From contig MGPH01000011.1 in assembly GCA_001797365.1 (NCBI GenBank), positions 20,402-84,401 of the forward strand: a stretch of DNA of 64,000 nucleotides. Direction: 5' to 3'. Shown here piece after piece: positions 2,946 through 64,000 of this stretch. Under the pieces are notes generated by a model. The model did no database searches, was not told the origin of the DNA, and saw only the letters and a list, made by a program, of their open reading frames with translations. A program made the translations under genes and the position numbers. This DNA is from Deltaproteobacteria bacterium GWA2_45_12. Its GTDB lineage: Bacteria > UBA10199. The stretch's first letter is position 1. Every line of letters starts with the position of its first letter.

Positions 2946-3008
2946 AAAACCGTACCCGTACGGGCGAACCTTGCCTGCCCGCCTCAGGAGGGTGTTCGCC
3001 CCTTGTAT

Positions 3009-3947
3009 CTACATCCGTTTCAAATAAAATTCATTCGAGTACTGCACCTTGCCATCAATGGTTTCAAGTTTCCACCGAAATTTGCCGTAGGGAAGAACCA
3101 GCTCTGTGGGGTGCATCCAAACCGTATCAACCCTTTCTTGCATACGCCCCAAAGCTTTCATAGGAAGAGTATATTGGGATTGCACCAAACCCAAATTTTG
3201 CGACAGGCCATTTCTGACAACCAAATCGCCGGAGGGAAACCATTTCCCCCTAAAAAAATGTTCCAGCCCCATTTTTTCCCTCACGGAAATTTGTTCGGGA
3301 TTGGTGACAGTAAGGTTCTGAATCTGCCCATCAAAATAAAATAAATAATCCGTCTTCAAATCAAGGGAACATTCCTTATTAAACTCCCCAATATCAGTTC
3401 GATCCGTAAATTCATTTTCCTGCCAGGTATGCACACGCCCCACATCCACATGCACCATCAAAAGATCAGGATAATACCCTACCCCGCCCCGGCCAAGCCT
3501 GCGGACATAATTCACCAATTTTTTCTCGGTGATTTCATCCATGTGAATATCAGAGGCCATCCCCTTTGTGTGATAACTGTTTTTGGCAACATTACGGCCT
3601 TCCGCCCGAAGAGCCTCGTTAAATTCAGGACGCCGATACCCGCTGATAATTTCAAGCGTATCCACTCCAAAGTGATCTGCTAAATGGTCCAAAAGATGAA
3701 TCAAATCCAGGTTCATTCCTGCCACTTCTGCATTATCACGGGAACGTAAAAACTGGCTGACCCTTTTAACAGCCTCTGGATTGGGGACATGATCTTTCTC
3801 ATAGGCAATTTCTAAGGTTTCGTTTAAATGAAAGTTATAAAGCCTCAAGAACCCATCATGTTTTAATTCTGAAGCCTGAGCACTAAAAGACATGATTAAA
3901 ATCAAGAGGTTAATAAAAATGGCCCGGGTATTGACAATGTGCGTCAT
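3009..3947 (-). CDS. peptidase M15A / DUF882 (YcbK/MepK-like) protein with signal peptide and C-terminal extension
   Basis: SGYRRPEFN...HTKGMASDIHMD zinc-peptidase motifs typical of DUF882. Start placed at Met-8 of the listed ORF (MTHIVN..., a hydrophobic signal-like stretch). Confidence 0.6.
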   Translation of the reverse strand: MTHIVNTRAIFINLLILIMSFSAQASELKHDGFLRLYNFHLNETLEIAYEKDHVPNPEAVKRVSQFLRSRDNAEVAGMNLDLIHLLDHLADHFGVDTLEIISGYRRPEFNEALRAEGRNVAKNSYHTKGMASDIHMDEITEKKLVNYVRRLGRGGVGYYPDLLMVHVDVGRVHTWQENEFTDRTDIGEFNKECSLDLKTDYLFYFDGQIQNLTVTNPEQISVREKMGLEHFFRGKWFPSGDLVVRNGLSQNLGLVQSQYTLPMKALGRMQERVDTVWMHPTELVLPYGKFRWKLETIDGKVQYSNEFYLKRM

Positions 3948-4095
3948 ATCGATTATGAGCCTTACCACTTTCTCAAAGTTTTGACTCTTAAAGTGTGAAA
4001 GTACTCATTTTTGTAGCGCATTAAAATAAAAAAATGCCACTTCTCTATAAACAAAAAGCCCTTTATAATTTAACAATCCTTTCATTTCAATTTAT

Positions 4096-5982
4096 ATGAA
4101 TCCAACTCCTACAAATAAACATTTGGAAGAAAAAGATGAGGTCGTCATTCGTTTATGTGGCGACTCCGGTGACGGTATGCAAATAACCGGCAACCGTTTC
4201 ACTGAAACATCCGCCGTCCTGGGAAACGATTTAGCCACTTTCCCCGACTATCCTGCTGAAATCAGGGCTCCTGCAGGGAGCCTGTTCGGTGTTTCCGGCT
4301 TTCAAATCCACTTTTCCTCCAAAGAAATTCGTACCGCAGGGGATGCCCCCGATGTCTTGGTGGCCATGAATCCCGCCGCCCTCAAAACAAACTTAAAAGA
4401 TCTTAAAAAAAAGGGGATGCTCATCCTTAATTTGAATGCCTTCACTGAAGATAATTTAAAGCTGGCCAATTATTCGTCCAACCCACTCGAAGACGGCAGC
4501 TTGAACGATTACGAACTCTATAAAGTCCCCATGACCTTGCTTACTGAAGAAGCACTTAAAGACTCCGGCCTTACCAAAAAAGACATGGCTCGTTGCAAAA
4601 ATTTCTTTGCCCTGGGGCTTATGTATTGGCTCTATCAACGCCCCTTGGACATCACCCTGGATTGGATTGACAAAAAATTCAAATCAAAACCCGAAATCGT
4701 CGATGCCAATAAAAAAGTTCTGAAAAGTGGTTATTATTTTGGCGAAACCACAGAAATTTTTAAATGTTGCTATAAAGTCTCCAAAGCCAAACTCACTCCA
4801 GGCACTTATCGCAATATCACCGGGAACGAAGCCACAGCTCTTGGGTTTATTGCCGCTTCTCAACTGGCCAACAAACCCCTTATCTATTGTAGTTATCCCA
4901 TTACACCCGCTTCCGATATTTTACATGAACTCTCCCGTCATAAAAATTTTGATATCAAAACATGCCAGGCCGAAGATGAAATTGCCGCCATGGGCATGGC
5001 CTTGGGCGTTGCCTTTGCCGGGGGTTTGGGCCTTACCGGCACAAGTGGCCCGGGGCTTGCCTTAAAAAGTGAAGCCTTAAGTTTGGCCATTATGATGGAA
5101 CTTCCCCTTGTGGTCATTAATGTTCAACGGGGGGGGCCATCAACGGGGCTTCCAACCAAAACCGAACAAGCCGATCTGTTTCAGGCCCTTTATGGAAGAC
5201 ATGGCGAAGCTCCCTTGGCGGTTATTGCACCAGCAACACCGGCCGAATGTTTTAGCTTGGCCATCGAAGCCGTTCGTCTATCCATTCAATACATGACCCC
5301 CGTTATTTTCCTTTCCGATGGCTATCTGGCCAATGGTGCTGAACCCTGGAATATTCCTCCCCTGGCTTCCCTTAATCCCATTGTGATTAAACACCCCACT
5401 CAGGCAGACAAATTTCAACCCTACCTCCGCGAGCCGGAAACCCTCGCACGTCCTTGGGCCATTCCCGGTACTCCCGGCTTGGAACACAGAATCGGCGGCA
5501 TTGAAAAGCAGGATATCACCGGGAATATCAGTTATGATCCTGTCAATCACGAGCACATGGTGCACTTACGTGCCGAAAAAATTGGGCGTATCGCTCAAAG
5601 CATTCCTTTAGCCCAGGTTTTTGGAAAAGAATCCGGTGACGTTCTTGTCATCGGTTGGGGGGGGACCTTTGGGGCCATTACCACCGCAGTGGAAACTCTT
5701 CAAAGAGAGGGCCTATCTATTTCAAGCCTTCATTTGCGCTTTTTAAATCCTTTCCCCGCCAATCTCGGGGATGTTCTCTCAAGGTTTAAAAAAATCATCG
5801 TGGCCGAACTCAATACGGGACAGCTAGCCCAGGTATTACGTGGTCAATTCACCGTTGATATAAAATCACTTACCAAAATTCAGGGAAGACCGTTTAATGT
5901 GAAGGAAGTTGTCGACGGGATTCGTACCATTCTCAACGAAGGAAACAATCAATGGAAACTCAAAAAAGCAGTGTCCAACTAA
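4096..5982 (+). CDS. korA: 2-oxoglutarate/2-oxoacid:ferredoxin oxidoreductase alpha subunit (fused gamma-alpha)
   Basis: 628 aa. N-terminal POR gamma-like domain (CGDSGDGMQ), then pyruvate-flavodoxin oxidoreductase core domains. Followed by a TPP-binding beta subunit. Confidence 0.8.
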   Translation: MNPTPTNKHLEEKDEVVIRLCGDSGDGMQITGNRFTETSAVLGNDLATFPDYPAEIRAPAGSLFGVSGFQIHFSSKEIRTAGDAPDVLVAMNPAALKTNLKDLKKKGMLILNLNAFTEDNLKLANYSSNPLEDGSLNDYELYKVPMTLLTEEALKDSGLTKKDMARCKNFFALGLMYWLYQRPLDITLDWIDKKFKSKPEIVDANKKVLKSGYYFGETTEIFKCCYKVSKAKLTPGTYRNITGNEATALGFIAASQLANKPLIYCSYPITPASDILHELSRHKNFDIKTCQAEDEIAAMGMALGVAFAGGLGLTGTSGPGLALKSEALSLAIMMELPLVVINVQRGGPSTGLPTKTEQADLFQALYGRHGEAPLAVIAPATPAECFSLAIEAVRLSIQYMTPVIFLSDGYLANGAEPWNIPPLASLNPIVIKHPTQADKFQPYLREPETLARPWAIPGTPGLEHRIGGIEKQDITGNISYDPVNHEHMVHLRAEKIGRIAQSIPLAQVFGKESGDVLVIGWGGTFGAITTAVETLQREGLSISSLHLRFLNPFPANLGDVLSRFKKIIVAELNTGQLAQVLRGQFTVDIKSLTKIQGRPFNVKEVVDGIRTILNEGNNQWKLKKAVSN

Positions 5983-6974
5983 CCAAAAAAGATTTCACCT
6001 CTGATCAGGATGTGCGTTGGTGCCCCGGTTGCGGTGACTATGCCATCTTGGCTTTCATGCAACGCGTTCTACCAACCTTGGGTATTCCTCGCGAAAAGTT
6101 TGTGTTTGTTTCAGGCATTGGTTGTTCCAGCCGCTTTCCATATTATATGAACACCTATGGCATGCACACCATTCATGGTCGTGCCCCTGCCATTGCCACA
6201 GGCATCAAGGTGGCCAACCCCGATCTGCAGGTGTGGGTTGTCACAGGGGATGGGGATGGCCTTTCCATTGGTGGAAACCACCTCATTCATGCGCTCCGTC
6301 GGAATGTAGACTTGAAAATTCTCTTGTTTAACAACCGCATTTATGGGCTGACCAAAGGGCAATATTCCCCCACCTCCGAGCAGGGGAAAAAGACAAAGTC
6401 GACTCCCCATGGGTCGGTGGACTATCCCTTAAATCCCCTTTCCATTGCTTTGGCTTCAGAAGCCACTTTTGTTGCCCGTTCGGTTGATTCCAATGCAAAA
6501 CACTTAACTGAAGTTTTAACACGCATGGCCCATCACAAAGGAAGTGCGTTTGTTGAAATTCTTCAAAACTGTATTGTTTTTAATGATGGCGCTTTTGACG
6601 ATGCCACAAACCCTGAAGTCCGCGATGACAATGTCTTGATCCTTAAACACGGCAACCCAATGATCTTTGGAAAAACCAAAAACAAGGGCATCAAACAAAA
6701 TGGGATGAATTTGGAAGTGGTCACCCTTGGTGAAAACGGCATTACCGAAAAAGATCTTGTCGTGCATGATGAATTTTTACCCACTTCCTCGTTGGCCTAT
6801 GTTCTTGCCCAAATGGAAAGACCCACCGCCCCCATCCCCATGGGGATATTCCGGTCCATCCAAAAACCCACTTACGAGACAATGATCCATCAACAAGTCG
6901 AACGGGCCCATTCAAAAGGAAAGGGAAACCTGGAAAAACTTATCCATGGTGAAAATACGTGGGTGGTGAATTGA
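5952..6974 (+). CDS. korB: 2-oxoglutarate:ferredoxin oxidoreductase beta subunit (TPP-binding)
   Basis: 340 aa with WCPGCGDY and GDGD..IGGNH TPP-binding motifs. Overlaps korA by 31 nt, suggesting translational coupling. Confidence 0.8.
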   Translation: METQKSSVQLTKKDFTSDQDVRWCPGCGDYAILAFMQRVLPTLGIPREKFVFVSGIGCSSRFPYYMNTYGMHTIHGRAPAIATGIKVANPDLQVWVVTGDGDGLSIGGNHLIHALRRNVDLKILLFNNRIYGLTKGQYSPTSEQGKKTKSTPHGSVDYPLNPLSIALASEATFVARSVDSNAKHLTEVLTRMAHHKGSAFVEILQNCIVFNDGAFDDATNPEVRDDNVLILKHGNPMIFGKTKNKGIKQNGMNLEVVTLGENGITEKDLVVHDEFLPTSSLAYVLAQMERPTAPIPMGIFRSIQKPTYETMIHQQVERAHSKGKGNLEKLIHGENTWVVN

Positions 6975-7067
6975 TGGTCAAACTGTTCAAATACTTAATA
7001 ACCCTGATTGAACAAAAAATCAGGCGTCATAAAACACGCAGGGCCCATTTAAACTTGTATGGCAAAT

Positions 7068-7238
7068 TCAAGATGTCCGACTTTGATCCTTCCGCTTTTT
7101 GATCTCTCTGGATTTAAATTCGATGCATGCGTCCCATTCTACTCGAATGGGGGAAGTTATGTCCCCAACGATGGCTTTCTTTCGAAGTTCTTTAAGCCTT
7201 TTCTGGATATTTTTCTTTTTAGGTTGGTTTACTTTCAT
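7068..7238 (-). CDS. candidate small basic protein (56 aa, MKVNQPKKKNIQKRLKELRKK...), not in ORF track because <60 aa
   Basis: Read by eye on the minus strand of the korB-tyrS spacer. Lys/Arg-rich. No recognisable family. Confidence 0.2.
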   Translation of the reverse strand: MKVNQPKKKNIQKRLKELRKKAIVGDITSPIRVEWDACIEFKSREIKKRKDQSRTS

Positions 7239-7360
7239 GGTTCGATGTTTCCTACTACACCGTCATTCCCGCGAAAGCGGGAATCCACATTGCTCAAAGA
7301 ATGGATTCCCGCTAACTGAACCCCGCATGGCGGGGTCACGTGGCGGGAATGACAAACGGG

Positions 7361-8566
7361 TCATTTAAAAAAAACCCTCTTAAACTTCCTCTTCCCCACC
7401 TGCAAAAGATACTCGCCCTTGCATTCAAGCTTCATCATGGGATCGGAAATTTTCTTTTCGTTGACTGACACCCCCCCTTGGGTGACAAGGCGTCGCGCTT
7501 CGCTATTGCTTGGGGTAAGAGAAAGTTCCGTCAAAAGAGTCTGAAGCCCCCTGGGCTCAGAAGAGACGGGCAGAGTCACCTCTTCGATATCCGAAGGCAA
7601 CCCGTGCTTAGAAAAAACCTTGGCAAATTCCTCTTCCGCTTTATCAGCTTCGGACCGGCTATGAAAACGGGCCACGATCTCTTTGGCCAAATCGGTTTTT
7701 ACTTTTTTTGGATGAAGCCCCCCACTGGTTACAGCCTGTTTCATTCCCTGTATTTCCTGCAAAGACTTTGAGCTAAGCAACTCATAATAGCACCACATCA
7801 GATCATCGGTGATGGACATGACCTTGCCAAAAATATCTTTCGGCGATTCTTTGATGCCGATGTAATTGTTGTAGGACTTGCTCATCTTTTGCACACCGTC
7901 AGTGCCTACAAGAAGCGGCATGGTCAAAACGATTTGCGGGGATTGGCCGGATCTTTTCTGAATGGTACGGCCCATGAGAAGGTTAAATTTTTGGTCCGTC
8001 CCTCCCAATTCTACATCTGCCTTGAGTACCACCGAGTCATGGGCTTGAAAGAGCGGATAGTAAAATTCGAGAATGGAGATATCATGCCCCGCCTTGAATC
8101 TTTTTTTGAAATCATCCCGTTCCAGCATGCGAGCCACCGTTTGTTTGGAACCAAGCATGGTCAATTCCATGGAAGACATTTTGTCAAACCATTCACTGTT
8201 GAAACGCACCTCGGTTTTGGCCCGATCAAGAATCTTAAAAACCTGATCTTGATACGTTTTAGAATTCTTCTGAACTTCCTCTTTCGACAATCCGGGCCTT
8301 GTTTCAGAACGCCCCGTCGGATCCCCAATGGTTGCCGTAAAATCACCGATCAGAAAAACAACCTGATGCCCCAGCTCCTGAAATTGCCGCAGTTTATGCA
8401 AAAGCACCGTATGCCCCAAATGCAAATCGGGCGCTGTTGGATCAAAGCCCGCTTTTACACGCAAGGGCTTCCCCAGTTTAAGCTTTTCGATAAGCCCTTC
8501 TTCTTCAATAAGCTCAACGACTCCCCGTTTAATAACCTCTAATTGTTTTTCAACAGAAATGGACAT
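7361..8566 (-). CDS. tyrS: tyrosyl-tRNA synthetase
   Basis: Class I aaRS with HLGH and KMSKS motifs and a C-terminal S4-like domain. Start placed at MSISVEK (Met-8 of the listed ORF). Confidence 0.85.
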
Positions 8567-8766
8567 AATTTCTCTCCCAATATTCATCCCCCTTTTCCGC
8601 CGAAGGACGGATCAGTCCTTTGGCTGAAAAAAAGGGGGACAAAGGGGGATTTGTTCCCGTGCGTGCTTGCCTTCGAACCTTTAAATATAAACCGGAAACG
8701 GAGATGGGCCCAAATCCCCCCTACCCCCCTTTTTTAAAGGGGGAATGCATCCTCTAAAAAGCCTCT

Positions 8767-9318
8767 TCAAAAAACATATTCCTTCTTTTCAGTCATCACA
8801 TATTGCAATCGGCAATCCCACAAATCAATGGGGATGCTTGGGATCATTTGAAATTCATAAGCCAGGCCCATGGTGGCCCCTGTAAATGAAGTCAAAAAAC
8901 GGTCATAAAAACCCCGGCCATAACCCAGACGAAATCCTTGCGAACTAAACCCGATACCGGGAATGATCACCAAATCCAAACGGGTATTGGGAGGCAAAGT
9001 CACACAACCATGTTTGGGTTCCAAAACCCCCCACGCTCCTTTTTGTAAATCAGCAGGGTCATTAACTTCATAATATTGAACTCCTTGTTCCACACGGGGG
9101 AAATAGACATTTTTGGCTTCTTCCAGCGCCTTGGTAAACAGGAAACGCGTTTCGACCTCATTTTTAACAGGAGAATAAAGCCCCACGCGCTGGGCCTTTT
9201 TCCACAAGGGAAGCAATACAATTTTTTCCTGGATAGTCAAACTGAGGCTGTGAACCCGCTCAAGGCTTAAGGCCAGTCTTTCTTCGAGAATTTTCTTCCT
9301 GAGTTGGTCTTTGGTCAT
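8767..9318 (-). CDS. ygfA: 5-formyltetrahydrofolate cyclo-ligase
   Basis: 183 aa with MTHFS motif GYGRGFYDRFL. Classical position downstream of ssrS and zapA. Confidence 0.75.
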   Translation of the reverse strand: MTKDQLRKKILEERLALSLERVHSLSLTIQEKIVLLPLWKKAQRVGLYSPVKNEVETRFLFTKALEEAKNVYFPRVEQGVQYYEVNDPADLQKGAWGVLEPKHGCVTLPPNTRLDLVIIPGIGFSSQGFRLGYGRGFYDRFLTSFTGATMGLAYEFQMIPSIPIDLWDCRLQYVMTEKKEYVF

Positions 9319-9329
9319 GTCCTACTAGT

Positions 9330-9520
9330 GGCTAGAAAAAACCCCACCATAAGTCGTGAGAAGCTTATCTTGAACCTTAACTAATTAAGGTGGAACCCGT
9401 TATTACCTCTTTAGGCTTCCTCACAAGGAGGCATGCTCACCAAGGTAAGAGATGGACCCCGTTTTGTCATTGTAAGTTCAAAAAATAATGACGTTCACCA
9501 CGAACCAGGCAGGGTTTGTT
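9330..9520 (-). ncRNA. ssrS: putative 6S RNA (ssrS)
   Basis: ~190-nt non-coding gap between zapA stop (9527) and ygfA start (9318) on the same strand. This is the conserved zapA-ssrS-ygfA synteny. On the minus strand the gap ends in GGTGGGGTTTTTT. Secondary structure not verified. Confidence 0.45.
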
Positions 9521-9526
9521 AAAATT

Positions 9527-9814
9527 TTACCTCAACGAAGTTTCCACACGTCGAATCAAATCATCAATCGTCAAAGCCCACTGATTTAAATTATCAGCCT
9601 GTTTTTCTTTAAGACTGACAAAATCATCAGCAATATTTAAGGCAGCCAGAATGGCAACATTGGCTGTTGAGATAGCCTTGTTCTGAGAAACAATCTCATG
9701 CATTTTTCTGTTTACATAATCAGAAACCTTTTTCACATGCTTTTCAGTGGCTTCACTTTTGATGTTAAACTTTTGATTCAAAATGGTTAGATCGTAGGAT
9801 TTTTTTTCTGTCAT
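9527..9814 (-). CDS. zapA: cell division protein ZapA
   Basis: 95 aa from MTEKKSYDLTILNQKFNIKSEA (typical ZapA N-terminus), with a coiled-coil C-terminus. Synteny with ssrS/ygfA. Confidence 0.7.
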   Translation of the reverse strand: MTEKKSYDLTILNQKFNIKSEATEKHVKKVSDYVNRKMHEIVSQNKAISTANVAILAALNIADDFVSLKEKQADNLNQWALTIDDLIRRVETSLR

Positions 9815-9950
9815 GGGGAAATTCCTATAATTTTGCTTGTCCTTCAAGTCAAGAAAAATCACCAAAAATTAGGATGTTAACCAAAAAGCCTCAATTGGAA
9901 CATGACATTATTTTATTAATGTCAATTATCCAACTATCTCCAAATAAGAA

Positions 9951-10643
9951 CTAATCTTTTTCAATCAAGCGCCATCCACGCAAGGGAATCCCCGCTAATG
10001 CATAGGGGCCAAAGTGAGTGCAAATAATTGTTTTGGTGGTCAACCCCACTTTTTCACACATGCGTCTTATCTGGCGTTGGCGTGATTCAATCATGCTCCA
10101 CTCAAACCATGTTGAAAGGGGATTTTCTTGGGCAAATTTTATGGAAACAGGTTGGGTCCTGCGACCATCCAATTCAAACCCTTGTTGTAAGCGGGCAAGC
10201 TGGCGATCATTGGGTTTAGGAGTCACTTTCACATCAAAAACCCTTCTTATCTCCGCTTGGGGATTTTGATATTTTGCAACAAGGCTTGCATCATTGGTTA
10301 AAACCACCAACCCCTCGGCATCATAATCAAGCCTTCCCAGCGGCTTAAAAGAGGCAAATTTTTTGGGCAAAAAATCGTAAACAGCTGAGCGTTCAAGTTC
10401 ATCATTTGAAGACACCACACATTTTTTGGGTTTATGAAAAAGAATGATTTGGACTGTTTGGTGAAGATTGAGTTTTTCTCCTTTGACAGAAATCTTGGCT
10501 GTGGAGGAATCCACTTTTGTCCCGAGCACGGTTACTTTTTTACCGTTTACAAATACATGCCCCTGCTTCATCAGCATTTCGGCTTCACGACGAGAATACA
10601 GCCCTGTTTGACCAATCAGTTTTTGAAGACGTTCAAGAGGCAT
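9951..10643 (-). CDS. S4-domain rRNA pseudouridine synthase (RsuA/RluB family)
   Basis: S4 domain followed by the PLGRLDYDAEGLVVLTND catalytic Asp motif. The listed N-terminal extension is encoded by a REP, so the start is placed at MPLERLQ. Confidence 0.75.
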   Translation of the reverse strand: MPLERLQKLIGQTGLYSRREAEMLMKQGHVFVNGKKVTVLGTKVDSSTAKISVKGEKLNLHQTVQIILFHKPKKCVVSSNDELERSAVYDFLPKKFASFKPLGRLDYDAEGLVVLTNDASLVAKYQNPQAEIRRVFDVKVTPKPNDRQLARLQQGFELDGRRTQPVSIKFAQENPLSTWFEWSMIESRQRQIRRMCEKVGLTTKTIICTHFGPYALAGIPLRGWRLIEKD

Positions 10644-10710
10644 GAAAATAGTAAGATGGTTCGACCACCGCATAGCGGGGTCCCGTTTACGGGACGGGGC
10701 TCATGTCCAT

Positions 10711-10738
10711 GTAAGGGCAATTCATGAATTGCCCTTAC
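10711..10738. repeat. REP family B: perfect 28-bp palindrome GTAAGGGCAATTCATGAATTGCCCTTAC
   Basis: Identical or near-identical copies at 14697-14724, 37419-37446, 39707-39748 (1.5 copies), 57553-57580, and variant 32400-32427. All sit in short spacers between genes. Confidence 0.9.
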
Positions 10739-10757
10739 AAAAATAGGACACCCTGAG

Positions 10758-11624
10758 CTAAGTCGAAGGGTCACTCTCATCTTCAACAAAGATATCTTTT
10801 TCCAGATCACGGATGCTTTTGATGGAAGATTCAAGTTCATCAATAAGGGCACTTGATTCCAAATCAAGAGCTTCCATAGCCGTACTTTCGGCCGTAAAAT
10901 CATCTTCTATAGGAACCGATTTTTCTTCGGAAGAAGCTTGGGGCTCTATCGTTTCCAAATCTTTAAGTGTAGGCAAATCCGAGAGCGATTTAAGGCTGAA
11001 AATTTCCAAGAATGTTTTGGTGGTTCCATACATGATGGGCTTACCCAGTTCTTCACTGCGGCCCACAATGCGCACCAGATCACGATCGAGCAATGTCTTG
11101 ATCACACCGCCACTGTCGACGCCTCGAATCTCTTCAATCTTTTGGCGGGTGGCAGGTTGTTGGTAGGCCACAATGGCTAAAGTTTCCATGCTGGGATTGG
11201 ACAAGCGGGCTTTGGGAATCTTTTGGAGATTCTTTAAAAAAGAACCCACATGAGCCTTGGTACGAAATTGGAAACCTCCTGCCACTTCCACCAACTCAAA
11301 ACCACGATCGGCAGACATTTGGTATTCGCAGCTAAGCTCACTTAACGCATCCTTGATATCCCCAAGGGAAACTTCCATTTCCATCTGGCTTTGCGCTTCT
11401 TTTAACTGCGCCAAAGGATCCGCTTCTTCCCTTTCTTCCGCATTTTGTTCAATCCCTTCGGCCTCGGGGATTGCTTCACCAGAAGCCTTCTCCACGGAAT
11501 CTTCAATTTTTGCTGTTTCTTTGGGTTCTGTTTTAAGTAATTTTCTTAAATCAGAAGTCGAAAGAGGTTCCGGCGAGACAAAAAGAAGGGCTTCAATAAT
11601 TGATTTGATTTGGGTTTTTTCCAT
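10758..11624 (-). CDS. scpB: segregation and condensation protein B
   Basis: IEALLFVSPEPL winged-helix motif with an acidic C-terminal tail. Adjacent to scpA. Confidence 0.8.
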   Translation of the reverse strand: MEKTQIKSIIEALLFVSPEPLSTSDLRKLLKTEPKETAKIEDSVEKASGEAIPEAEGIEQNAEEREEADPLAQLKEAQSQMEMEVSLGDIKDALSELSCEYQMSADRGFELVEVAGGFQFRTKAHVGSFLKNLQKIPKARLSNPSMETLAIVAYQQPATRQKIEEIRGVDSGGVIKTLLDRDLVRIVGRSEELGKPIMYGTTKTFLEIFSLKSLSDLPTLKDLETIEPQASSEEKSVPIEDDFTAESTAMEALDLESSALIDELESSIKSIRDLEKDIFVEDESDPST

Positions 11625-25824: not shown

Positions 25825-25895
25825 GGGAGGTAGGGGCGCTGCTTGCTGCGCCCTTATTTATGGTACCGCCCCATAGGGCGCAGCAAGCGGCGCCC

Positions 25896-56669: not shown

Positions 56670-57515
56670 ATGCCGAAAATACTTAACGTGAATTTAGGTG
56701 ATACCATTAATATCTTCCAATATTTGGATTATCGACTCTTTCTAAAAGATTGGTTTGATTTGATTAAAAAGAAAAGGCCCCATTTTTCTTACCGCAGCTT
56801 TTCAAGGCTGGCTGGTTTTCGTTCCCCCGGCATGCTTCAACGGGTTATCGATGGGGAACGAAATCTGGCCGATGAAAGTGTGACTAAATGCATTGGCGCC
56901 CTAAAGCTTAATTTTCAGGAGGCCGATTATTTTAAAAACCTGGTCAACTATTCCAGGGCTGAAAACAGCGAGGAGAAAAATTTCCATTATCAAAAACTTC
57001 TTCTTTCCCAAAAATACAATCTTCTCAAACCCGTCAAAGAGTCAAAATACAGTTTTTATTCGGCATGGTACCATCCCATTGTGCGGGAATTAGTCATCGC
57101 CAAGGATTTTGATGGAACCCCTGCCTGGATTGCCAAACGCATCAAACCCAACATCAGTGTGGCCGATGTTGAAAACTCACTTCACATTCTGGAGCGTTTG
57201 GGCTTTATTGCCAAAATCGGCAAGAACAAGTGGAAACAAACCTTTCCACTCACAACAACGGGCTCGGATGTCCAATCGCTTCTCATTCATGAATATCATC
57301 GCAACCTCTTGCTGATTACCCGGGAAGTGATGTCTAAAATTGATCTTGAAAAAAGGGATATCAGTACACTTGTTTTGGGAATTCAAAAAAGTGAGGTTTC
57401 CAAACTCAAGGAAAAAATCCGCGAGTTTAGGAAAGAAATATTAAAACTGGTGGCCAATGAAGCCCCCACCGAAGAAGTATATTTGATGAATATCCAACTT
57501 CTTCCAGTGACGTAG
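56670..57515 (+). CDS. TIGR02147/DUF4423-like protein (putative HTH regulator)
   Basis: 281 aa. Recalled family pattern: Y..FLKDWF...KKK.P.FSYR.F...AGF.SP..L..VI.G.RNL......K...ALKLN..EADYF.NLV. Confidence 0.55.
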   Translation: MPKILNVNLGDTINIFQYLDYRLFLKDWFDLIKKKRPHFSYRSFSRLAGFRSPGMLQRVIDGERNLADESVTKCIGALKLNFQEADYFKNLVNYSRAENSEEKNFHYQKLLLSQKYNLLKPVKESKYSFYSAWYHPIVRELVIAKDFDGTPAWIAKRIKPNISVADVENSLHILERLGFIAKIGKNKWKQTFPLTTTGSDVQSLLIHEYHRNLLLITREVMSKIDLEKRDISTLVLGIQKSEVSKLKEKIREFRKEILKLVANEAPTEEVYLMNIQLLPVT

Positions 57516-57618
57516 GGAAAAATTTGATGGTTTGACCAAGGCTCATCTCCATGTAAGGGCAATTCATGAATTGCCCTTACAAAAAGGACATACTTAAGCC
57601 AGGTCGAAGGTACCTTTT

Positions 57619-58347
57619 ATGAAAACAATTTTAAATATACTCAATGTGTTTTTCTTCCTGTTCATCCTTGCCTCGTGCGGTGGAGGAGGCGGCAGCAAAT
57701 CAAGGGCCAATTTTGGCGGCTCTGAAATCGGGAACGCCCTTGTCATCGGCCATGTTGCTGGCAATGATTGTGAAGTCGAAACCATCTTTGTCTGGGATGA
57801 AGTGGATCTTTTGGCTTTTAGCCCCGATGATAACTGCAACTTCAGCTTGGATGTCCCCGCAAACAAGGTTTATACGCTTGTCTTTAAATTTAAGGATGGA
57901 AGTGAATCTCCTTTACGTGTTCAAAATGACCAGAACATGCCCCAAACCTATTCCTTCTTTGTGGGAGATGAAGGCATTAGCATCAATTTGGGTGAAGTTG
58001 CCCGCGAAAATCAGGGGGGGCCCCAAGCCTTGATCATGCAATTCCTAGGTGGTGGTGTCGATCTTATCCCTGAAAACCAGCCGGCCAAACAAACCGATAT
58101 TGACAAAGATGGAACTGTTGACTTCTTTGATGCCGATGATGACGGCGATGGTCTTGAGGACAAGTCTGACAACTGCCCCTTCGTTTCAAACGCCGATCAA
58201 AAAGATTCTGATCATGATGGTCAGGGGGATGTTTGTGACAACAATCTGGATTTTTCTGAATGTGAGGTTGAAAACCCGCCCACCCATCAGGTCTGCGACC
58301 CAGACACCAACAAGTGCCTTGATTTTTGCGACTTGAAATATTTGTAA
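57619..58347 (+). CDS. lipoprotein with thrombospondin type-3 (Ca-binding) repeats
   Basis: Lipobox LFILASCGGGGG, followed by DKDGTVDFFDADDDGDGLEDKSDNCPFVSNADQKDSDHDGQGDVCDNN (D.D.DG..D..DNCP...N..Q.D.D pattern). Cys-rich C-terminus. Confidence 0.65.
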   Translation: MKTILNILNVFFFLFILASCGGGGGSKSRANFGGSEIGNALVIGHVAGNDCEVETIFVWDEVDLLAFSPDDNCNFSLDVPANKVYTLVFKFKDGSESPLRVQNDQNMPQTYSFFVGDEGISINLGEVARENQGGPQALIMQFLGGGVDLIPENQPAKQTDIDKDGTVDFFDADDDGDGLEDKSDNCPFVSNADQKDSDHDGQGDVCDNNLDFSECEVENPPTHQVCDPDTNKCLDFCDLKYL

Positions 58348-58428
58348 AAAAATAAAAAACAACTTTGGCAGGATTAAAACCGATAAATCCCCTGTAAGGG
58401 GACATGAGGGACATTCAGAAATAATGCC

Positions 58429-61400
58429 ATGCGTCAAAATAAAACTTTAATCCTTCATAGCTTTTTAATCTTGTTTCTCGTTTTTCCTTTCCTTGCTTCA
58501 TCGCAAACTCATCACCCTCATCCTCAAGAAAGAAAAACCATTTCGGATTCACGAAAAGATTCTGCACGACACAAAAAACCTGACAGGGCAAACAAAATCA
58601 CTCCATCCAAGGAACAAAAATATATTTCAAAACCAGAAAGAAGAGGAAAAGTTCCAAAACCAGGAAAAACCTTCACTCCCAAACCCGACAAACCACACAA
58701 ACCAAGATATCGTCCGGTTTGGTATACCCAAATCAAAAACAAACTTCTTGAACTTGCAAGAAAGCGTCATACCCCAAGAATCAAGGGGATAGAAAAAGTT
58801 TGGGTATCTCTCCCTTCTCAAGCAGATTTCACATGCCCCGTGGGCCCACCACAAATCGAATTCCAGGAAGGCTACACAACACCCGAGGAACAACAAAGAA
58901 TCACCTCTTTTTTAACAAGCGCTGAAGATTCATTGCGCCTGATAAACCCCAATATTCTCTGCAATTTCGATGGATGGGTGATTGAAGACATCCGGGCCAC
59001 ACGGGGAATCGCGGGTTATTATGACGGGCATTATGCTTATGTGGACAAAACCCTCCATGCTTGGGCCCATGAATTGAGCCACTACATATCGCATGACACG
59101 CCCATGGATCTTCCTGAATATCAGGAGGGAATTCGGGAAAGGGAAGAATGGAGGCAAGAAGCGCTAGCCAGGGGGGACGACCCTGAAATTGTCGATCTTA
59201 CTGTCGATATCAATACAAACCACTACTTGCTGGGAAAAGATTATCTTTGTTGGATCAACCCGGATAGACCCGAGGACTGCATTGCCATCGTTACTGAGTA
59301 TTATCGCGACCGACTCAACGAACAGTTTGCAGAAGCTCTTAGCAAGGTCATATCAAATCCTTTGGGAGGAATTCTTAAACATTCTGGTAACGAGTCCACC
59401 TGTCAAATGGCTCAATGGTTTGCCCGGATCCTTCTTAATGACCCCGAAAGCAATCTGGTAGCGCCCTTCACTTTTCAAATCGACGCTCCCCATGACCTGT
59501 ATGTATCTGGAGAAAACGTGAGTGTGGAAGAAGAGAATGCTTCGCAAAAACGCTTTCATCCGCTAAGCCAGGGCGCCTTTGCCTTAACCTCTAGGGAATC
59601 CTTGATTATCCACATCCCTCAAGAGGGTCTCCAGCCTTGGAGACAAGTGAGCCTTCCCCTTCCCCAAGATTTCAATTACGGAGCCGAAGCAATCCGAACA
59701 ACCAGTGACCCAACAACACTCTTCGCCTCCGATTACACGGGAATTTGGGCAGAAACATCTAAAAACTATTGGTACCGCAACGTTGCCGATTATGATGGGG
59801 ATTGGTTCCTCTTCCATCAAAAGTCAGCAGGAGATGGCGGAAGTTTTTTCCGTCGCCTTCGCGTCAATGCTGCAGAACCAACCTGGCAGGACATCGCCAC
59901 GGGATCGTTATTTGATGATGAAGGCTTTACGAGTTTCATCGATGGAAGGATCAGCTTTTTAACGCAAGAGGGGTATTGGATTCATTCCGGTGATTTTTCA
60001 AACCAGCCCATTGTATCGGAAAACAATCTCATCCCTTACCCGCAATTTATCCGGGAACAGATTCAAAACTCAAAAAAAATGGAGATCGTCCATGCAGAAG
60101 GCAGGAACAGAACTTATTTATGGATCGACGGCATTCCCAATTACCCACGGGGCTTCATTTCGCGCTTATTTGAAATGAGCATTAACAATGAGAATCATAT
60201 CTATTTCAGACAAGTCTTTGAAATTCCCACGACACACACGACATCCCGGCCTTTTTTATATGATGATGATTGGCATGTCTTTGAAATGATCGTGAATGGG
60301 CGCCAATATAGTTGGCCCCCTGACGAAGGGAACTATGAGTTCCCGACTTACGACCGGGTTCTTATCAAAATTAATCGTGACGGCTCTTTCACCCCCCATC
60401 CCCTGATTTATGATTCACACCTTGACCGGATGAAAGGTATGCTCCATTGCAATCAGTCCAGCCTCCATGTTTCGGGTGGAAGGGTGGTCTGCCAGAGACA
60501 ATGGGCTGGGCCAAGATCCATCTTTGGGGCCTTGGCGGCGTTTGAATTTGATGAGCCGGTGGGGGATTTTCCCGAAGTGAGTTTACAACCCATTATCGAA
60601 CTTCAGTCCTCCCAATTGGAGGGTGAGGGGCCAGGATATGTTTATGAATTGCAAGCCCAGATGTATGATCCCTATGAGCGGGTGATTCTCAACTCAGAGA
60701 TCGGGGAAGATGGGGAGATCATCGTTTCTTGGATATTTCCCGATGGGACAATCTTGGAGCAAAGGAGAAATAAAGATCACGCCAATCAACGTTATGATTA
60801 CGACTTAGGCACCATCCGGCACCGATTTTCAGAGCTAGGGGACAACCCTTTTAGGATCCGCGTTCAAGATGGAAATCGCACCCGGTCTTTTGAAATCCCC
60901 TATTTCATCAGCATTTCGGATTTCGACAACCACACGGAAATCCTTGAGGCTTCAGTCCCGCCCACGGTGCGCCAAGGAGAAGCTTTCAACATTGTCTTCA
61001 GCGCAGAAAACCGCCTCCGCATACCTCTCCAATTCGTCATTAGATTTGGCGGCAATGGCCAGGAAGTTCTGACGGAACTCATTCCTTATGAAACCTATTC
61101 TCGTGGAGTAGAAGTGACTCACACCTATGGCTACGGCATTTTTGTGGGAGAAAAAAGTATACGGATACAAACTGAAAACGTGCCCGTAGTTCCCTATGAT
61201 ATGGAAACGGAGTTGGTTTTTGCAAACGCTCCTCCTCAAATCTCACACTTGCGTTTTGTGGGGAATAATCTCGAACCCGGGCAGCCCATCCAGTTCTATG
61301 CCGATGTGACCGACCCCAACCAATTGCCTTCCTGGGATCCCAATTATGATGTCACTCCCCCCGATCCCCTTACCTACCAATGGATTTTCAGTGATGGAGT

Positions 61401-61581
61401 CATCGTTGATAACGTCCAAGAGGCCCAAATCATCCACACCTTCTATGAAGATGGCGGTGAAGGCCCCATGGAGGTAACCCTTGTCGTCACCGATAGCCAT
61501 GGCGCCGAAGTTCAAGCCAGCCTCGAGGTCACTCCCGCAAACAGGGCTCTTGGAATCAGGGTGGAAGAGATTCCATTTTAA
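58429..61581 (+). CDS. large secreted hypothetical protein (1050 aa) with Lys/Pro-rich N-terminal region, HExxH motif and C-terminal PKD-like domain
   Basis: Signal peptide MRQNKTLILHSFLILFLVFPFLASS, KP-rich repeats (PKPGKTFTPKPDKPHKPRYRP), and HELSHYISHD. The C-terminal YQWIFSDG...HTFYEDGGEGPMEVTLVVTDSHG fits the PKD signature. Confidence 0.65.
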   Translation: MRQNKTLILHSFLILFLVFPFLASSQTHHPHPQERKTISDSRKDSARHKKPDRANKITPSKEQKYISKPERRGKVPKPGKTFTPKPDKPHKPRYRPVWYTQIKNKLLELARKRHTPRIKGIEKVWVSLPSQADFTCPVGPPQIEFQEGYTTPEEQQRITSFLTSAEDSLRLINPNILCNFDGWVIEDIRATRGIAGYYDGHYAYVDKTLHAWAHELSHYISHDTPMDLPEYQEGIREREEWRQEALARGDDPEIVDLTVDINTNHYLLGKDYLCWINPDRPEDCIAIVTEYYRDRLNEQFAEALSKVISNPLGGILKHSGNESTCQMAQWFARILLNDPESNLVAPFTFQIDAPHDLYVSGENVSVEEENASQKRFHPLSQGAFALTSRESLIIHIPQEGLQPWRQVSLPLPQDFNYGAEAIRTTSDPTTLFASDYTGIWAETSKNYWYRNVADYDGDWFLFHQKSAGDGGSFFRRLRVNAAEPTWQDIATGSLFDDEGFTSFIDGRISFLTQEGYWIHSGDFSNQPIVSENNLIPYPQFIREQIQNSKKMEIVHAEGRNRTYLWIDGIPNYPRGFISRLFEMSINNENHIYFRQVFEIPTTHTTSRPFLYDDDWHVFEMIVNGRQYSWPPDEGNYEFPTYDRVLIKINRDGSFTPHPLIYDSHLDRMKGMLHCNQSSLHVSGGRVVCQRQWAGPRSIFGALAAFEFDEPVGDFPEVSLQPIIELQSSQLEGEGPGYVYELQAQMYDPYERVILNSEIGEDGEIIVSWIFPDGTILEQRRNKDHANQRYDYDLGTIRHRFSELGDNPFRIRVQDGNRTRSFEIPYFISISDFDNHTEILEASVPPTVRQGEAFNIVFSAENRLRIPLQFVIRFGGNGQEVLTELIPYETYSRGVEVTHTYGYGIFVGEKSIRIQTENVPVVPYDMETELVFANAPPQISHLRFVGNNLEPGQPIQFYADVTDPNQLPSWDPNYDVTPPDPLTYQWIFSDGVIVDNVQEAQIIHTFYEDGGEGPMEVTLVVTDSHGAEVQASLEVTPANRALGIRVEEIPF

Positions 61582-61632
61582 CAAATAATCGTGGTAAAAA
61601 TTTCCTGAACTTGATGCCACCGCCTTAACAAA

Positions 61633-63228: not shown

Positions 63229-63579
63229 GATGAAAACTCCTTATGAAATAATTTGAATTTAAAATAACCAACCCCTTTTACATTTAAAAGGGGCCCTTTT
63301 AAAATCAGCTAGCATGGCCAAAATCGCTTGAAAAGTGGTTTTTTAGACCTTTTCCAACTCGTTTCTTTACATGCTCCCATTAAAATTACTGGAAAATTAA
63401 AGATGGGTTCTATAAACAATGGGACTGATAGTTACAGGGAATAATTTTCATACCAAAAACTTAATAAGCGCCCGCGACTAAGCCCGGGTACCTGGTACTC
63501 CAGGTGGGCGATGAAGTGGTTCCAAGCCGAGAGGCGCAAACCATAGCGATAGCGGAGGGCAACCAAAAAAATTTAATAG

Positions 63580-63656
63580 GCGCCCGTAGCTCATTTGGAT
63601 AGAGCATCGCCCTTCTAAGGCGAGGGTAGCAGGTTCGAGTCCTGCCGGGCGCACCA
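63580..63656 (+). tRNA. tRNA-Arg (anticodon TCT), CCA encoded
   Basis: Manual cloverleaf: acceptor GCGCCCG/CGGGCGC, D-arm GCTC..GAGC, anticodon stem TCGCC/GGCGA with loop CTTCTAA (TCT), T-arm GCAGG-TTCGAGT-CCTGC, then discriminator A plus CCA. Confidence 0.8.
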
Positions 63657-64000
63657 ATTGGACGAAGAGGCCATTTCGGAGAGAATCCGGAATGGCTTTT
63701 TCATTTCATATCGCACACTTGGTGCGTCAAAAACTCGGTTCGAAAGTATCTTTTCTAGGAAGTCTCGCTTCTCCTCTGCAGTACGAGACATCCATAATGT
63801 TTTCGCGCTTGTAGCCAGTTCTAAAACTTTTTTCGCAGTAGTGAGATAAGCGCCATCAATGTCCCTTTGTGCTTGTGCCATGAGGAGAGTAAACCGTTCT
63901 CTCTCTTCCCGAATGCGTTGAATCTGGCGCTTGTAACCTTCCACATCAAGTAATTCATTGCGATGGTCGTCGTAAATTCGGTCTTCTGCATTTTCGAGAG
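63615..64000 (-). CDS. C-terminal part of a putative large serine recombinase (gene continues beyond window)
   Basis: In-frame read from the window edge. The coiled-coil region and W..RTAEEKRDFLEKILSNRVF-DAPSVRYEMKKPF resemble the conserved C-terminal tail of large serine recombinases. The last 14 codons overlap the 3' end of tRNA-Arg. Confidence 0.4.
   Translation of the reverse strand, partial: LENAEDRIYDDHRNELLDVEGYKRQIQRIREERERFTLLMAQAQRDIDGAYLTTAKKVLELATSAKTLWMSRTAEEKRDFLEKILSNRVFDAPSVRYEMKKPFRILSEMASSSNWCARQDSNLLPSP

What the first reader, a model, noticed from the sequence alone, without database searches (positions are those of the whole stretch)
63573..64000. tRNA-Arg(TCT) with a large-serine-recombinase-like gene overlapping its 3' end: probable boundary of an integrated element extending beyond the window
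The minus-strand ORF running off the window edge ends 42 nt inside the tRNA. Its last ~100 aa look like the conserved C-terminal tail of large serine recombinases (a coiled coil followed by a W...EEKR...-containing tail). A recombinase abutting a tRNA 3' end is the classic signature of a prophage, ICE or genomic-island attachment site.
Basis: partly seen in the sequence, partly recalled or inferred. Interest (0 to 1): 0.55.

Follow-up and report, generated by a model that had tools for sequence, protein, structure and literature searches.

The report
Serine-integrase island boundary at tRNA-Arg
The window ends just inside a small phage-derived island that a large serine integrase has inserted at the very 3' end of a tRNA-Arg gene; this integrase belongs to a large, apparently undescribed group whose own gene ends contain the attachment site and read into tRNA genes.

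Summary
tRNA-Arg(TCT) lies at 63580-63656 (+). A minus-strand open frame runs off the window edge and stops at 63615-63617, 42 nt inside the tRNA.

Contigs 99.99-100% identical to the window extend it. They show an intact 510-aa large serine recombinase (LSR) with RVSDRRQ, Resolvase and Recombinase domains. Beyond it lie phage early genes: a 64-aa ORF, a DnaC-like loader, a replisome organiser, a YqaJ exonuclease, Cro-like and CI/S24 regulators. Defence cargo follows (YhcG, CBASS), then probable host genes about 9.5 kb from the tRNA. No structural genes were seen.

In relatives from metagenomes the LSR gene ends inside the 3' half of a tRNA gene (Arg, Glu, Asp or His). The conserved Trp codon TGG is the reverse complement of the tRNA's CCA.

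Relatives found inside free phage genomes keep only 8-11 nt of a tRNA 3' end. After that they carry a T-loop-like motif 5 bp further out, the attP/attB offset described for serine integrases. These genes encode a different tail, often ending in -AA.

The far junction, an empty site and the exact crossover were not found.

The parts
63580..63656 (+). tRNA-Arg(TCT) gene, intact, with encoded CCA (63654-63656). This is the host target (attB side) of the element.
   Evidence: ARAGORN. Rfam RF00005, 69.9 bits. The first 74 nt are 100% identical to a tRNA-Arg(TCT) gene in L013 that is not next to an LSR and lacks the CCA.
63615..64000 (-). 3' end (last 128 codons) of a 510-aa large serine recombinase gene. 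The gene start lies outside the window, at window-equivalent position 65147.
   Evidence: Translation. Full gene in 100%-identical contigs: L009 6318-7850 and L055 10001-11533. P0158 is 100% identical with Resolvase and Recombinase domains.
63615..63653 (-). The last 12 codons plus the stop (CARQDSNLLPSP*) are a read-through of the tRNA's 3' half. DSN is the T-loop, and the stop TAG overlaps the anticodon.
   Evidence: Sequence. The same register (W..DSN) occurs in relatives next to other tRNAs.
63647..63656 (.). Inferred core of the hybrid att site (crossover zone): GGGCGCACCA, the last 10 nt of the tRNA (TGGTGCGCCC on the LSR strand).
   Evidence: Free-phage (attP-state) relatives share only 8-11 nt with a tRNA 3' end, starting at or next to the TGG. 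8 of 8 LSR-adjacent tRNAs encode CCA, against 1-2 of 9 non-adjacent ones. This is an inference, not a demonstration.
63657..63682 (.). Element-side arm (P arm) of the junction, inside LSR codons ...ILSEMASSSN. It carries an inverted T-loop-like motif, ATTTCGGA, at 63673-63680.
   Evidence: GAAAT is conserved at the same distance in the 15 related junction sequences tabulated. It forms a pseudo-dyad with the P' arm in free-phage relatives.
63629..63653 (.). Host-side arm (B' arm): acceptor 3' strand plus T-arm. The T-loop GGTTCGAGTC at 63632-63641 is the putative zinc-ribbon-domain motif.
   Evidence: The motif sits at nt 17-24 from TGG in tRNAs and at nt 22-29 in attP-state relatives, a 5-bp shift. 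This matches the rule in PMC3783163.
63664..63702 (+). Hairpin followed by TTTTT on the tRNA strand, embedded in LSR codons KKPFRILSEMAS. It is a possible element-supplied terminator for the tRNA.
   Evidence: Terminator-like site with 17 pairs. The hairpin and the T-run are conserved in 15 relatives, with compensatory changes at 3 of 7 consensus pairs, but the consensus energy is weak.
63737..63746 (-). A further T-loop-like motif, CTTTCGAACC, within codons L-S-N of the LSR. It is conserved at the DNA level across the family; its role is unknown.

Best explanation
The window's right end is the integrase-proximal junction of a phage-derived integrative island, about 9.5 kb long and almost entirely outside the window. 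It is inserted at the 3' end of tRNA-Arg(TCT) by its own large serine recombinase (LSR).

Shown: the LSR gene is intact and canonical. It is followed by a temperate-phage regulatory, recombination and replication module, then by anti-phage defence cargo. The 15 distinct relatives whose 3' end was examined as DNA all have the gene ending inside the 3' half of a tRNA gene.

[quoted passage not shown] The P arm is the codons ...SEMxxxxx. The core is the Trp codon TGG (the tRNA's CCA) plus about 7 nt that copy the acceptor-stem 3' strand. In the free element, the P' arm encodes a further 15-18 residues (..LVDDFRT..), usually ending in Ala-Ala. The bacterial site attB is the 3' end of a tRNA gene, and the T-loop (GTTCGAA) serves as the motif read by the zinc-ribbon domain. 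attP carries a mimic of that motif 5 bp further from the centre, as in characterised serine integrases.

Crossover within the last ~10 nt of the tRNA leaves the tRNA intact and gives it an encoded CCA. A hairpin plus T-run inside the integrase codons may act as a replacement terminator. The crossover also swaps the integrase's C-terminal tail for a read-through of the tRNA.

The island itself looks like a satellite or a cut-down prophage that carries CBASS and YhcG-type defence genes.
For: Extension of the window:
- L008 and L009 are 100% identical to the window over 12,000 and 6,442 nt. L055 is 99.993% identical to L009.
- The LSR is 510 aa with RVSDRRQ. P0158 is 100% identical and carries Resolvase and Recombinase domains.
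- Full-length homologues carry Resolvase, Recombinase and Zn_ribbon_recom, and match PHROG 95 'integrase'.

Neighbouring genes:
- CI-like HTH+S24 repressor, Cro-like regulator, YqaJ/RecE-like exonuclease, replisome organiser and DnaC-like loader.
- CBASS cyclase plus 2TM effector, and a YhcG/PDC-S02 protein.
- Then VKOR/DsbA-like and P-type ATPase genes.

Family pattern:
- The LSR 3' end overlaps tRNA-Arg (TCT, TCG, ACG, CCG, CCT), tRNA-Glu (TTC, CTC), tRNA-Asp and tRNA-His.
- 791 representative protein clusters match the C-terminal fragment.
- At least 97 of the tails examined are tRNA read-throughs.

Free-phage (attP) state:
- LSRs with the alternative tail sit inside phage genomes, with phage genes on both sides and no tRNA.
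- Their DNA shares 8-11 nt with an Arg, Glu or His tRNA 3' end, and has TT(T/C)AGAA at nt 22-28. The tRNA T-loop is at nt 17-23.
- The 5-bp rule for attP versus attB is in PMC3783163.

CCA: it is encoded in 8 of 8 LSR-adjacent tRNAs but in only 1-2 of 9 others from the same contigs.
Against: - The far junction (attR) was not found in the 10 kb beyond the integrase. There is no P'-type motif and no copy of the tRNA end.
- No genome with an empty site was available. The nearest other PckA is only 76% identical and is not syntenic on the tRNA side.
- No single LSR lineage was seen in both states. The closest pair across the two tail classes is 74% identical.
- The exact crossover is ambiguous: dyad symmetry and LI-integrase geometry differ by about 3 bp.
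- A 98%-identical relative (L002) has an IS630 element inserted in the gene and a nonsense codon. Copies at this locus can therefore decay, and the window's element may no longer be mobile.
- Base composition does not mark the island.
Confidence: 0.8

Rival explanations
1. This is a grounded remnant. The island did enter at the tRNA through its serine integrase, but it has lost its far attachment site and is now an immobile, domesticated defence island. The intact integrase gene is a leftover.
For: No attR-like sequence lies within 10 kb. Only 8 nt separate the last cargo gene from the first host-like gene. No structural genes are present. A 98% relative has IS630 and a nonsense codon in the same gene. 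L001 and L050-L052 are 5'-truncated LSR remnants.
Against: The 510-codon LSR frame is intact, with all catalytic motifs. The regulatory and replication module is also uninterrupted. Three independent assemblies give the same sequence. The P' arm of this particular subfamily is unknown, so failure to recognise it is weak evidence.
Confidence: 0.35
2. The element carries a long 3' part of the tRNA, as tyrosine-integrase islands do, and crosses over in the T-loop or anticodon loop. On this reading, the LSRs with the alternative '..DDFRT..AA' tail are a separate lineage that does not target tRNAs, not the free-phage state.
For: At apparently related host flanks the LSR-adjacent tRNA differs in its anticodon and T arms: L009 Arg-TCT versus L016 Arg-TCG, and L020 versus L012. 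L024 has an LSR end followed by a tRNA-like sequence only up to the T-loop. No lineage was seen in both states.
Against: No displaced tRNA 3' fragment exists in any locus with up to 10 kb of upstream sequence. The three attP-state genes examined each begin their tail with 8-11 nt of a specific tRNA end (Arg, Glu, His) and then show the motif shifted by 5 bp. 'W+2 residue' prefixes are shared between the two tail classes, and the classes are interleaved by sequence similarity. The window's tRNA body is identical to a free tRNA-Arg(TCT) gene elsewhere, up to the discriminator base.
Confidence: 0.12
3. The overlap is incidental. The recombinase is a host or transposon-type serine recombinase that happens to lie beside a tRNA.
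For: The window fragment alone matches no family.
Against: The overlap recurs in the same reading register in the 15 related junctions, with nine different tRNA species. Phage genes are adjacent.
Confidence: 0.02

Closest known systems
Phage large serine integrases (Listeria A118/LI, phiC31, Bxb1, TP901-1, SPbeta)
   Same: The domain order is the same: Resolvase with a catalytic Ser, then Recombinase, Zn ribbon and coiled coil. The att sites are short, with little attP/attB identity. A distal half-site motif lies 5 bp further out in attP than in attB (PMC3783163). A small ORF next to int could be the directionality factor.
   Different: Identity to any deposited phage integrase is at most 27%. 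The target is the 3' end of tRNA genes rather than a protein-coding or intergenic site. attP lies inside the integrase's own coding sequence, so the protein's C-terminal tail changes on integration.
tRNA-targeting tyrosine-integrase islands and prophages (P4-like and others; Islander/TIGER islands)
   Same: The integrase gene abuts the 3' end of a tRNA gene. The tRNA is kept intact. The island carries defence and other cargo.
   Different: The enzyme family and chemistry are different. Tyrosine-integrase islands leave a direct repeat of tens of nucleotides of the tRNA's 3' part. Here at most ~10 nt are shared and no repeat is found.
Integration-dependent immunity of mycobacteriophage BPs and Clusters G, I, N and P
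   Same: attP lies inside an ORF, so integration changes that protein's C-terminus. The virally encoded form ends in an ssrA-like tag (PMC4557955). Here the free-phage tails end in -AA in 14 of 30 cases, against 2 of 236 for the other proteins.
   Different: In BPs the split gene is the repressor and the integrase is a tyrosine recombinase. Here the altered protein is the serine integrase itself. Proteolysis is untested.
SSV1-type archaeal integrases
   Same: attP lies within the integrase gene and the target is a tRNA gene (PMC8371274, listed; details from general knowledge).
   Different: They are tyrosine recombinases from archaea. Their gene is split into two large parts, whereas here only the last ~15 codons are exchanged.
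Phage satellites and small integrative defence islands (PICI-like elements, tycheposons)
   Same: The size is ~10 kb. The content is an integrase, a CI/Cro-type switch, a replication module and defence cargo, sited next to a tRNA (bioRxiv 10.1101/2020.12.28.424599).
   Different: No packaging or capsid-redirecting genes were recognised. Most described elements use tyrosine integrases (910 of 937 in the tycheposon study).

Membership tests
Large serine recombinase / serine integrase | N-terminal resolvase catalytic domain with the nucleophilic serine | tested here: met
   RVSDRRQ at residues 8-14 of the 510-aa protein. PF00239 is recorded for the gene product. Homologues score 1.5e-14 to 5.7e-10.
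Large serine recombinase / serine integrase | Recombinase domain (PF07508) following the catalytic domain | tested here: met
   Recorded for the gene product. Above the Pfam cut-off in all five homologues scanned.
Large serine recombinase / serine integrase | Zinc-ribbon domain with Cys motifs | tested here: inconclusive
   C-E-C-G-C...YYRC is present. PF13408 is above its cut-off only in the L001 homologue (29.0 vs 25.3 bits). L006 scores 25.2 bits and the others 18-19 bits.
Large serine recombinase / serine integrase | attP and attB with a distal motif shifted 5 bp inward in attB | tested here: met
   Three free-phage relatives have TT(T/C)AGAA at nt 22-28. The tRNA T-loop motif is at nt 17-23. 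The rule is from PMC3783163. This was tested on relatives, not on the window's own attP, which is unknown.
Large serine recombinase / serine integrase | Catalyses attP x attB integration; needs a directionality factor for excision | not testable with these tools
   A 64-aa ORF directly upstream of the gene is a candidate directionality factor only by its position.
Integrated mobile element (genomic island or prophage) | Two hybrid junctions (attL and attR) bounding the element | tested here: not met
   Only the integrase-proximal junction is identified. No second junction was recognised in 10 kb.
Integrated mobile element (genomic island or prophage) | Absence from related genomes (empty site) | tested here: inconclusive
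   No close relative lacking the element was available. Related elements with different cargo sit at other tRNAs.
Complete temperate prophage | Structural, packaging and lysis genes | tested here: not met
   None lie between the tRNA and the first host-like genes ~9.5 kb away.
Integration-dependent control (BPs-like) | attP inside an ORF, so that integration alters the protein's C-terminus | tested here: met
   Two tail states occur across the family. The alternative tail occurs only in free-phage contexts. The link between the two states is inferred, not seen in one lineage.
Integration-dependent control (BPs-like) | C-terminal degradation tag on the virally encoded form | tested here: inconclusive
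   14 of 30 alternative tails end in -AA, against 2 of 236 other proteins. There is no functional test.

The most novel reading that the evidence does not exclude
In this integrase clade, integration rewrites the enzyme itself. The free phage would make an integrase with a conserved 15-18-residue tail that usually ends in Ala-Ala, resembling an ssrA-type degradation tag. The prophage would make one whose tail is a translated piece of tRNA. Integrase stability or activity, and hence the balance between integration and excision, would then depend on whether the element is integrated. This would be a serine-integrase counterpart of the integration-dependent switch of mycobacteriophage BPs. The same clade would also offer integrases whose landing sites are tRNA 3' ends and T-loops, which exist in every genome.
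Probability: 0.3. Interest if true: 0.75.

Novelty: new variant of a known kind. Interest (0 to 1): 0.6.

Why it matters
Serine integrases are the main tools for inserting large DNA into genomes, and their use is limited by the need for a matching landing site. This clade has about 800 clusters at 50% identity and is seen mostly in uncultured Bdellovibrionota- and Myxococcota-like bacteria. It appears to read the acceptor/T-arm end of tRNA genes, and different members are tuned to Arg, Glu, Asp or His tRNAs. That gives a natural series of specificity variants on a target present in every cell.

The arrangement also shows how a serine integrase can use a tRNA gene without damaging it. It crosses over in the last few bases, may supply a CCA and possibly a terminator, and has its own coding sequence double as the attachment site.

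For genome annotation there are two practical points. Such genes are easily missed: the NCBI record for this contig has no gene call at this position. And islands of this type leave no long direct repeat for boundary-finding software.

Tried and rejected
- Pfam and NCBIfam on the 127-aa window fragment gave nothing significant.
- A search of the whole window for a second copy of the tRNA's 3' end found none.
- Direct-repeat and blastn-short searches for tRNA fragments in 12 related loci gave only chance-level matches of 9-13 nt. The 13-nt match in L006 has no flanking similarity.
- Scans for the far end of the element found nothing: an exact pattern in viral contigs and in metagenome contigs.
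- IMG/VR viral contigs held no close relative. Deposited phages reach at most 27% identity.
- The empty-site search through PckA homologues failed. The nearest is 76% identical and its locus is not syntenic on the tRNA side.
- Motif scans for an attR in L055 and L013 recovered the positive controls in two of the three free-phage loci tested (L053, L059; not L060) but found nothing in the islands.
- A peptide scan for a '..DDFRT..' tail at the presumed far end found none. Instead a similar motif turned up just upstream of the integrase gene. I first took it for a junction. I rejected that reading because the motif is also present in a free-phage genome (L059).
- I first thought the short homologues P0004, P0006 and P0007 were free-phage forms of close relatives. 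They are 5'-truncated remnants.
- Base composition does not mark the island.
- The literature searches found no description of serine integrases targeting tRNA 3' ends. Key papers (for example Mageeney 2020) are not in the library, so prior description cannot be excluded.

Full report
**1. The observation**

The window holds a single tRNA gene, tRNA-Arg(TCT), at 63580-63656 on the + strand (ARAGORN; Rfam tRNA 69.9 bits). On the minus strand a frame is open from the window edge to a TAG at 63615-63617.

Read directly from the sequence:
- The stop codon overlaps the anticodon (63614-63616).
- The Trp codon at 63654-63656 is the reverse complement of the tRNA's encoded CCA.
- The residues after it (CARQDSNLLPSP) are simply the tRNA's 3' half translated backwards.

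The 127-aa fragment alone matches no Pfam or NCBIfam family.

**2. What the ORF is**

A word-index search found only eight short relatives. A look-up of the neighbouring PckA protein returned two contigs: NCBI GCA_003501025.1 DNQF01000003.1 (L008) and Logan SRR6482819_61 (L009). They are 100% identical to the window over 12,000 and 6,442 nt and run 7.4 kb past its end. A third contig, ENA k141_685751 (L055), is 99.993% identical and runs 10 kb past the start of the gene.

In these contigs the ORF is an intact 510-aa protein:
- It starts MDAVIINRVSDRRQ, the serine-recombinase catalytic motif.
- It has a CxC...YYRC zinc-ribbon segment and a long helical region.
- Resolvase and Recombinase domains are on record for it.
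- Five full-length homologues add Zn_ribbon_recom, at or below the Pfam cut-off.
- The homologous segment matches PHROG 95 'integrase'.

It is therefore a large serine recombinase (LSR). The NCBI record has no gene call here and calls a 103-aa antisense ORF instead. The organism is an uncultured 'Deltaproteobacteria bacterium' MAG, according to the name carried by its PckA.

**3. What lies beyond the window**

Going away from the tRNA, in L055 coordinates:

| Position in L055 | Strand | Gene or product |
|---|---|---|
| 10001-11533 | + | LSR |
| 9796-9990 | + | 64-aa ORF |
| 8994-9803 | + | DnaC-like helicase loader |
| 8204-9052 | + | replisome organiser |
| 7887-8207 | + | 106-aa ORF |
| 7055-7876 | + | PHROG 3657 protein (273 aa) |
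| 6187-7116 | + | YqaJ/RecE-like exonuclease |
| 5834-6067 | + | Cro-like HTH protein |
| 5094-5735 | - | CI-like HTH + S24 peptidase repressor (divergent from Cro) |
| 3996-5060 | - | YhcG/DUF1016 nuclease (PADLOC PDC-S02) |
| 3516-3995 | - | 159-aa protein starting MCG |
| 2605-3519 and 2026-2595 | - | CBASS pair: SMODS cyclase and SLATT 2TM effector |
| 833-2017 and 1-843 | + | VKOR/DsbA-like protein and P-type ATPase, probably host |

The VKOR gene converges on the 2TM effector gene, and their stop codons are only 8 nt apart. No capsid, tail, terminase or lysis gene is present.

Related islands in L013 and L003 share the core from the MCG protein to the LSR, but carry other cargo in the distal slot. 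In L013 the cargo is an Alw26I-type restriction-modification system.

The element is therefore a ~9.5-kb phage-derived island or satellite with a defence-cargo slot. It is not a full prophage. Its far boundary rests only on gene content.

**4. The tRNA overlap is a family trait**

Scans of species-representative genomes and of metagenome contigs gave 20 loci that encode relatives of 32-84% identity. Fifteen distinct junctions were tabulated, 19 counting near-duplicate contigs and one cut by a contig end. In each, the gene ends inside the 3' half of a convergent tRNA gene, always in the same register (W, then ..DSN.. from the T-loop).

The tRNAs are Arg-TCT, Arg-TCG, Arg-ACG, Arg-CCG, Arg-CCT, Glu-TTC, Glu-CTC, Asp-GTC and His-GTG.

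An exhaustive HMMER search with the window fragment found 791 representative clusters at E<=1e-3, and 199 at E<=1e-10. Of the C-terminal tails examined:
- at least 84 are tRNA read-throughs of the ..DSN.. type;
- 13 end in WGG*, which is the read-through of tRNA-His;
- about 30 have a different, conserved tail, W..(L/V)(D/E)(D/E)FRT......, typically 15-18 residues long.

**5. The alternative tail marks the un-integrated state (inferred)**

Three LSRs with this tail were looked up: P0061, P0176 and P0188. Each sits inside a phage genome with phage genes on both sides and no tRNA. The flanking genes include a terminase in one, a CI/Cro pair and many small ORFs in another, and an endolysin with baseplate and sheath genes in the third.

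The DNA after the Trp codon begins with 8-11 nt identical to a specific tRNA 3' end, then diverges. Each carries TT(T/C)AGAA at nt 22-28 counted from the T of TGG. In the tRNAs the T-loop ATTCGAA lies at nt 17-23.

| Locus | Shared start | Matching tRNA |
|---|---|---|
| L053 | TGGCGCGCCC | Arg |
| L060 | TGGCGTCCCCA | Glu |
| L059 | (A)GGGGTGG | His |

A distal motif placed 5 bp further out in attP than in attB is exactly what Rutherford et al. described for serine integrases. In their work the zinc-ribbon-domain motif is at positions 16-24 in attP and 11-19 in attB (PMC3783163).

In GC-rich L053 the motif is written with AT-rich codons (TTT AGA ACC). This argues that the constraint acts on the DNA and not on the peptide.

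The two tail classes share 'W+2 residue' prefixes and are interleaved by similarity. For example, P0176 (alternative tail) is 74% identical to P0175 (tRNA-His read-through).

I conclude that attP is embedded in the 3' end of the integrase gene, and that integration replaces the last ~15 codons with tRNA sequence. This is a strong inference, but no single lineage was seen in both states.

**6. Where the crossover is**

The shared block limits it to the last ~10 nt of the tRNA (window 63647-63656). Two arguments disagree by about 3 bp:
- The pseudo-dyad between the P arm and the P' arm centres on the TGG. The P-arm motif TCCGAAAT lies at -24..-17 (window 63673-63680).
- Two observations place the centre inside the acceptor-stem strand (63647-63653). 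First, 8 of 8 LSR-adjacent tRNA genes encode CCA, against only 1-2 of 9 other tRNA genes on the same contigs. Among those others is a tRNA-Arg(TCT) gene in L013 that is identical to the window's tRNA up to the discriminator base but lacks the CCA. Second, the LI-integrase geometry points to the same place.

Either way the element supplies at most a few bases of the tRNA, plus the CCA. That explains why no long direct repeat exists anywhere.

**7. Further features**

- A 17-pair hairpin followed by TTTTT on the tRNA strand (63664-63702) lies inside the conserved codons KKPF...EM. The hairpin and the T-run are conserved in 15 relatives, with compensatory changes at 3 of 7 consensus pairs, although the consensus energy is weak. 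It may replace the tRNA's displaced terminator.
- The alternative tails end in -AA in 14 of 30 cases, against 2 of 236 other proteins in the set. This recalls the ssrA-like tags of the BPs system (PMC4557955). Function is untested.

**8. What remains open**

- The far junction was not recognised.
- No empty site was available.
- A 98%-identical relative has an IS630 element in the zinc-ribbon region, a nonsense codon and a degenerate 5' flank. Other loci hold truncated remnants. The window's copy, although intact, may therefore be immobile.
- At host flanks that look related, the adjacent tRNA is Arg-TCT in one genome and Arg-TCG in another. I cannot fully explain this with a crossover at the 3' end. 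It is the main point in favour of the rival in which more of the tRNA is element-borne.

**9. Comparison and verdict**

The enzyme is a member of the large serine recombinases. It is distant from every characterised one (at most 27% identity). What differs is:
- the target, a tRNA 3' end;
- the placement of attP inside the integrase ORF;
- the resulting tail swap.

Analogies exist in other enzyme families: the BPs repressor gene, and SSV1-type integrases. The searched literature holds no description of this arrangement for serine integrases, but the library is incomplete.

I rate it a new variant of a known kind, of moderate to good interest.

Noticed in passing
window 63465-63579: A ~115-nt block directly upstream of the tRNA is about 90% identical to the corresponding flank in L016, much more conserved than the integrase gene. 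It begins TTAATAAGCGCCCG, like the start of the tRNA itself. There is no Rfam match, and the predicted fold is not significant (z -1.7). It may be an unknown small RNA, a leader, or a relic.
   Followed up: partly
L055 9895-9925 (window-equivalent about 65220-65250, outside the window); also L013, L003, L011, L012, L004, L005, L015, L059: A nearly invariant DNA segment, GTGGACGTTTTT(C/A)GAACCCTTTT, lies 65-97 nt upstream of the integrase start, inside a small ORF (peptide ..LVDVFRTLLEW). It resembles the attP P' arm and the tRNA T-loop. It occurs in both integrated and free-phage loci, so it is not a junction. It could be an operator for the integrase, or part of a directionality-factor gene.
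   Followed up: partly
L002 (ENA k141_3215895), 98% identical to window 63791-64000: In a close relative the integrase gene is interrupted by an IS630-family element (31-nt inverted repeats, TA duplication). It also has a GAA-to-TAA nonsense codon and a degenerate 5' flank, so it is a decayed copy of the same gene.
   Followed up: yes
L008 (NCBI DNQF01000003.1) 6247-7779: The public NCBI record has no gene call for the 510-aa integrase. It calls a 103-aa antisense ORF within it instead.
   Followed up: no
L055 2026-5060 (outside the window) and L013 831-5344: The distal slot of the island carries defence genes. Here they are a CBASS cyclase with a 2TM effector and a YhcG/PDC-S02 nuclease. In the related island they are an Alw26I-type restriction enzyme and a fused methyltransferase.
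   Followed up: yes
window 13581, 14322, 25844-25885, 28303: A GC-rich palindromic element, (T)GTAGGGGCGC...GCGCCCC, is repeated, and some copies are paired head to head. It looks like a REP-type repeat family of this genome.
   Followed up: no
window 56700-61600: The genes between pckA and the Metallophos-Maf-Mla cluster are absent from the syntenic locus of the nearest relatives (L056-L058). They encode a 1050-aa secreted protein, a TSP_3 protein, a DUF4423 protein and an ORF6N protein. This may be a second variable region.
   Followed up: no
window 63737-63746 and the same place in 15 related loci: The codons L-S-N of the integrase are written CTTTCGAACC, another T-loop-like motif. It is conserved at the DNA level even where the peptide varies (TTGAGAAC, TTTGGAAC). 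Its significance is unknown.
   Followed up: partly
L024 660-760: An integrase 3' end is followed by a tRNA-like 3' end only as far as the T-loop (TGGCGCGCCCGGTGTGATTCGAAC), then by unrelated sequence. No tRNA is called. It could be a pseudo-site, a decayed tRNA or a rearrangement.
   Followed up: no
L021 1-80: The contig starts with an inverted duplicate of the following ~70 nt, most likely an assembly artefact.
   Followed up: no
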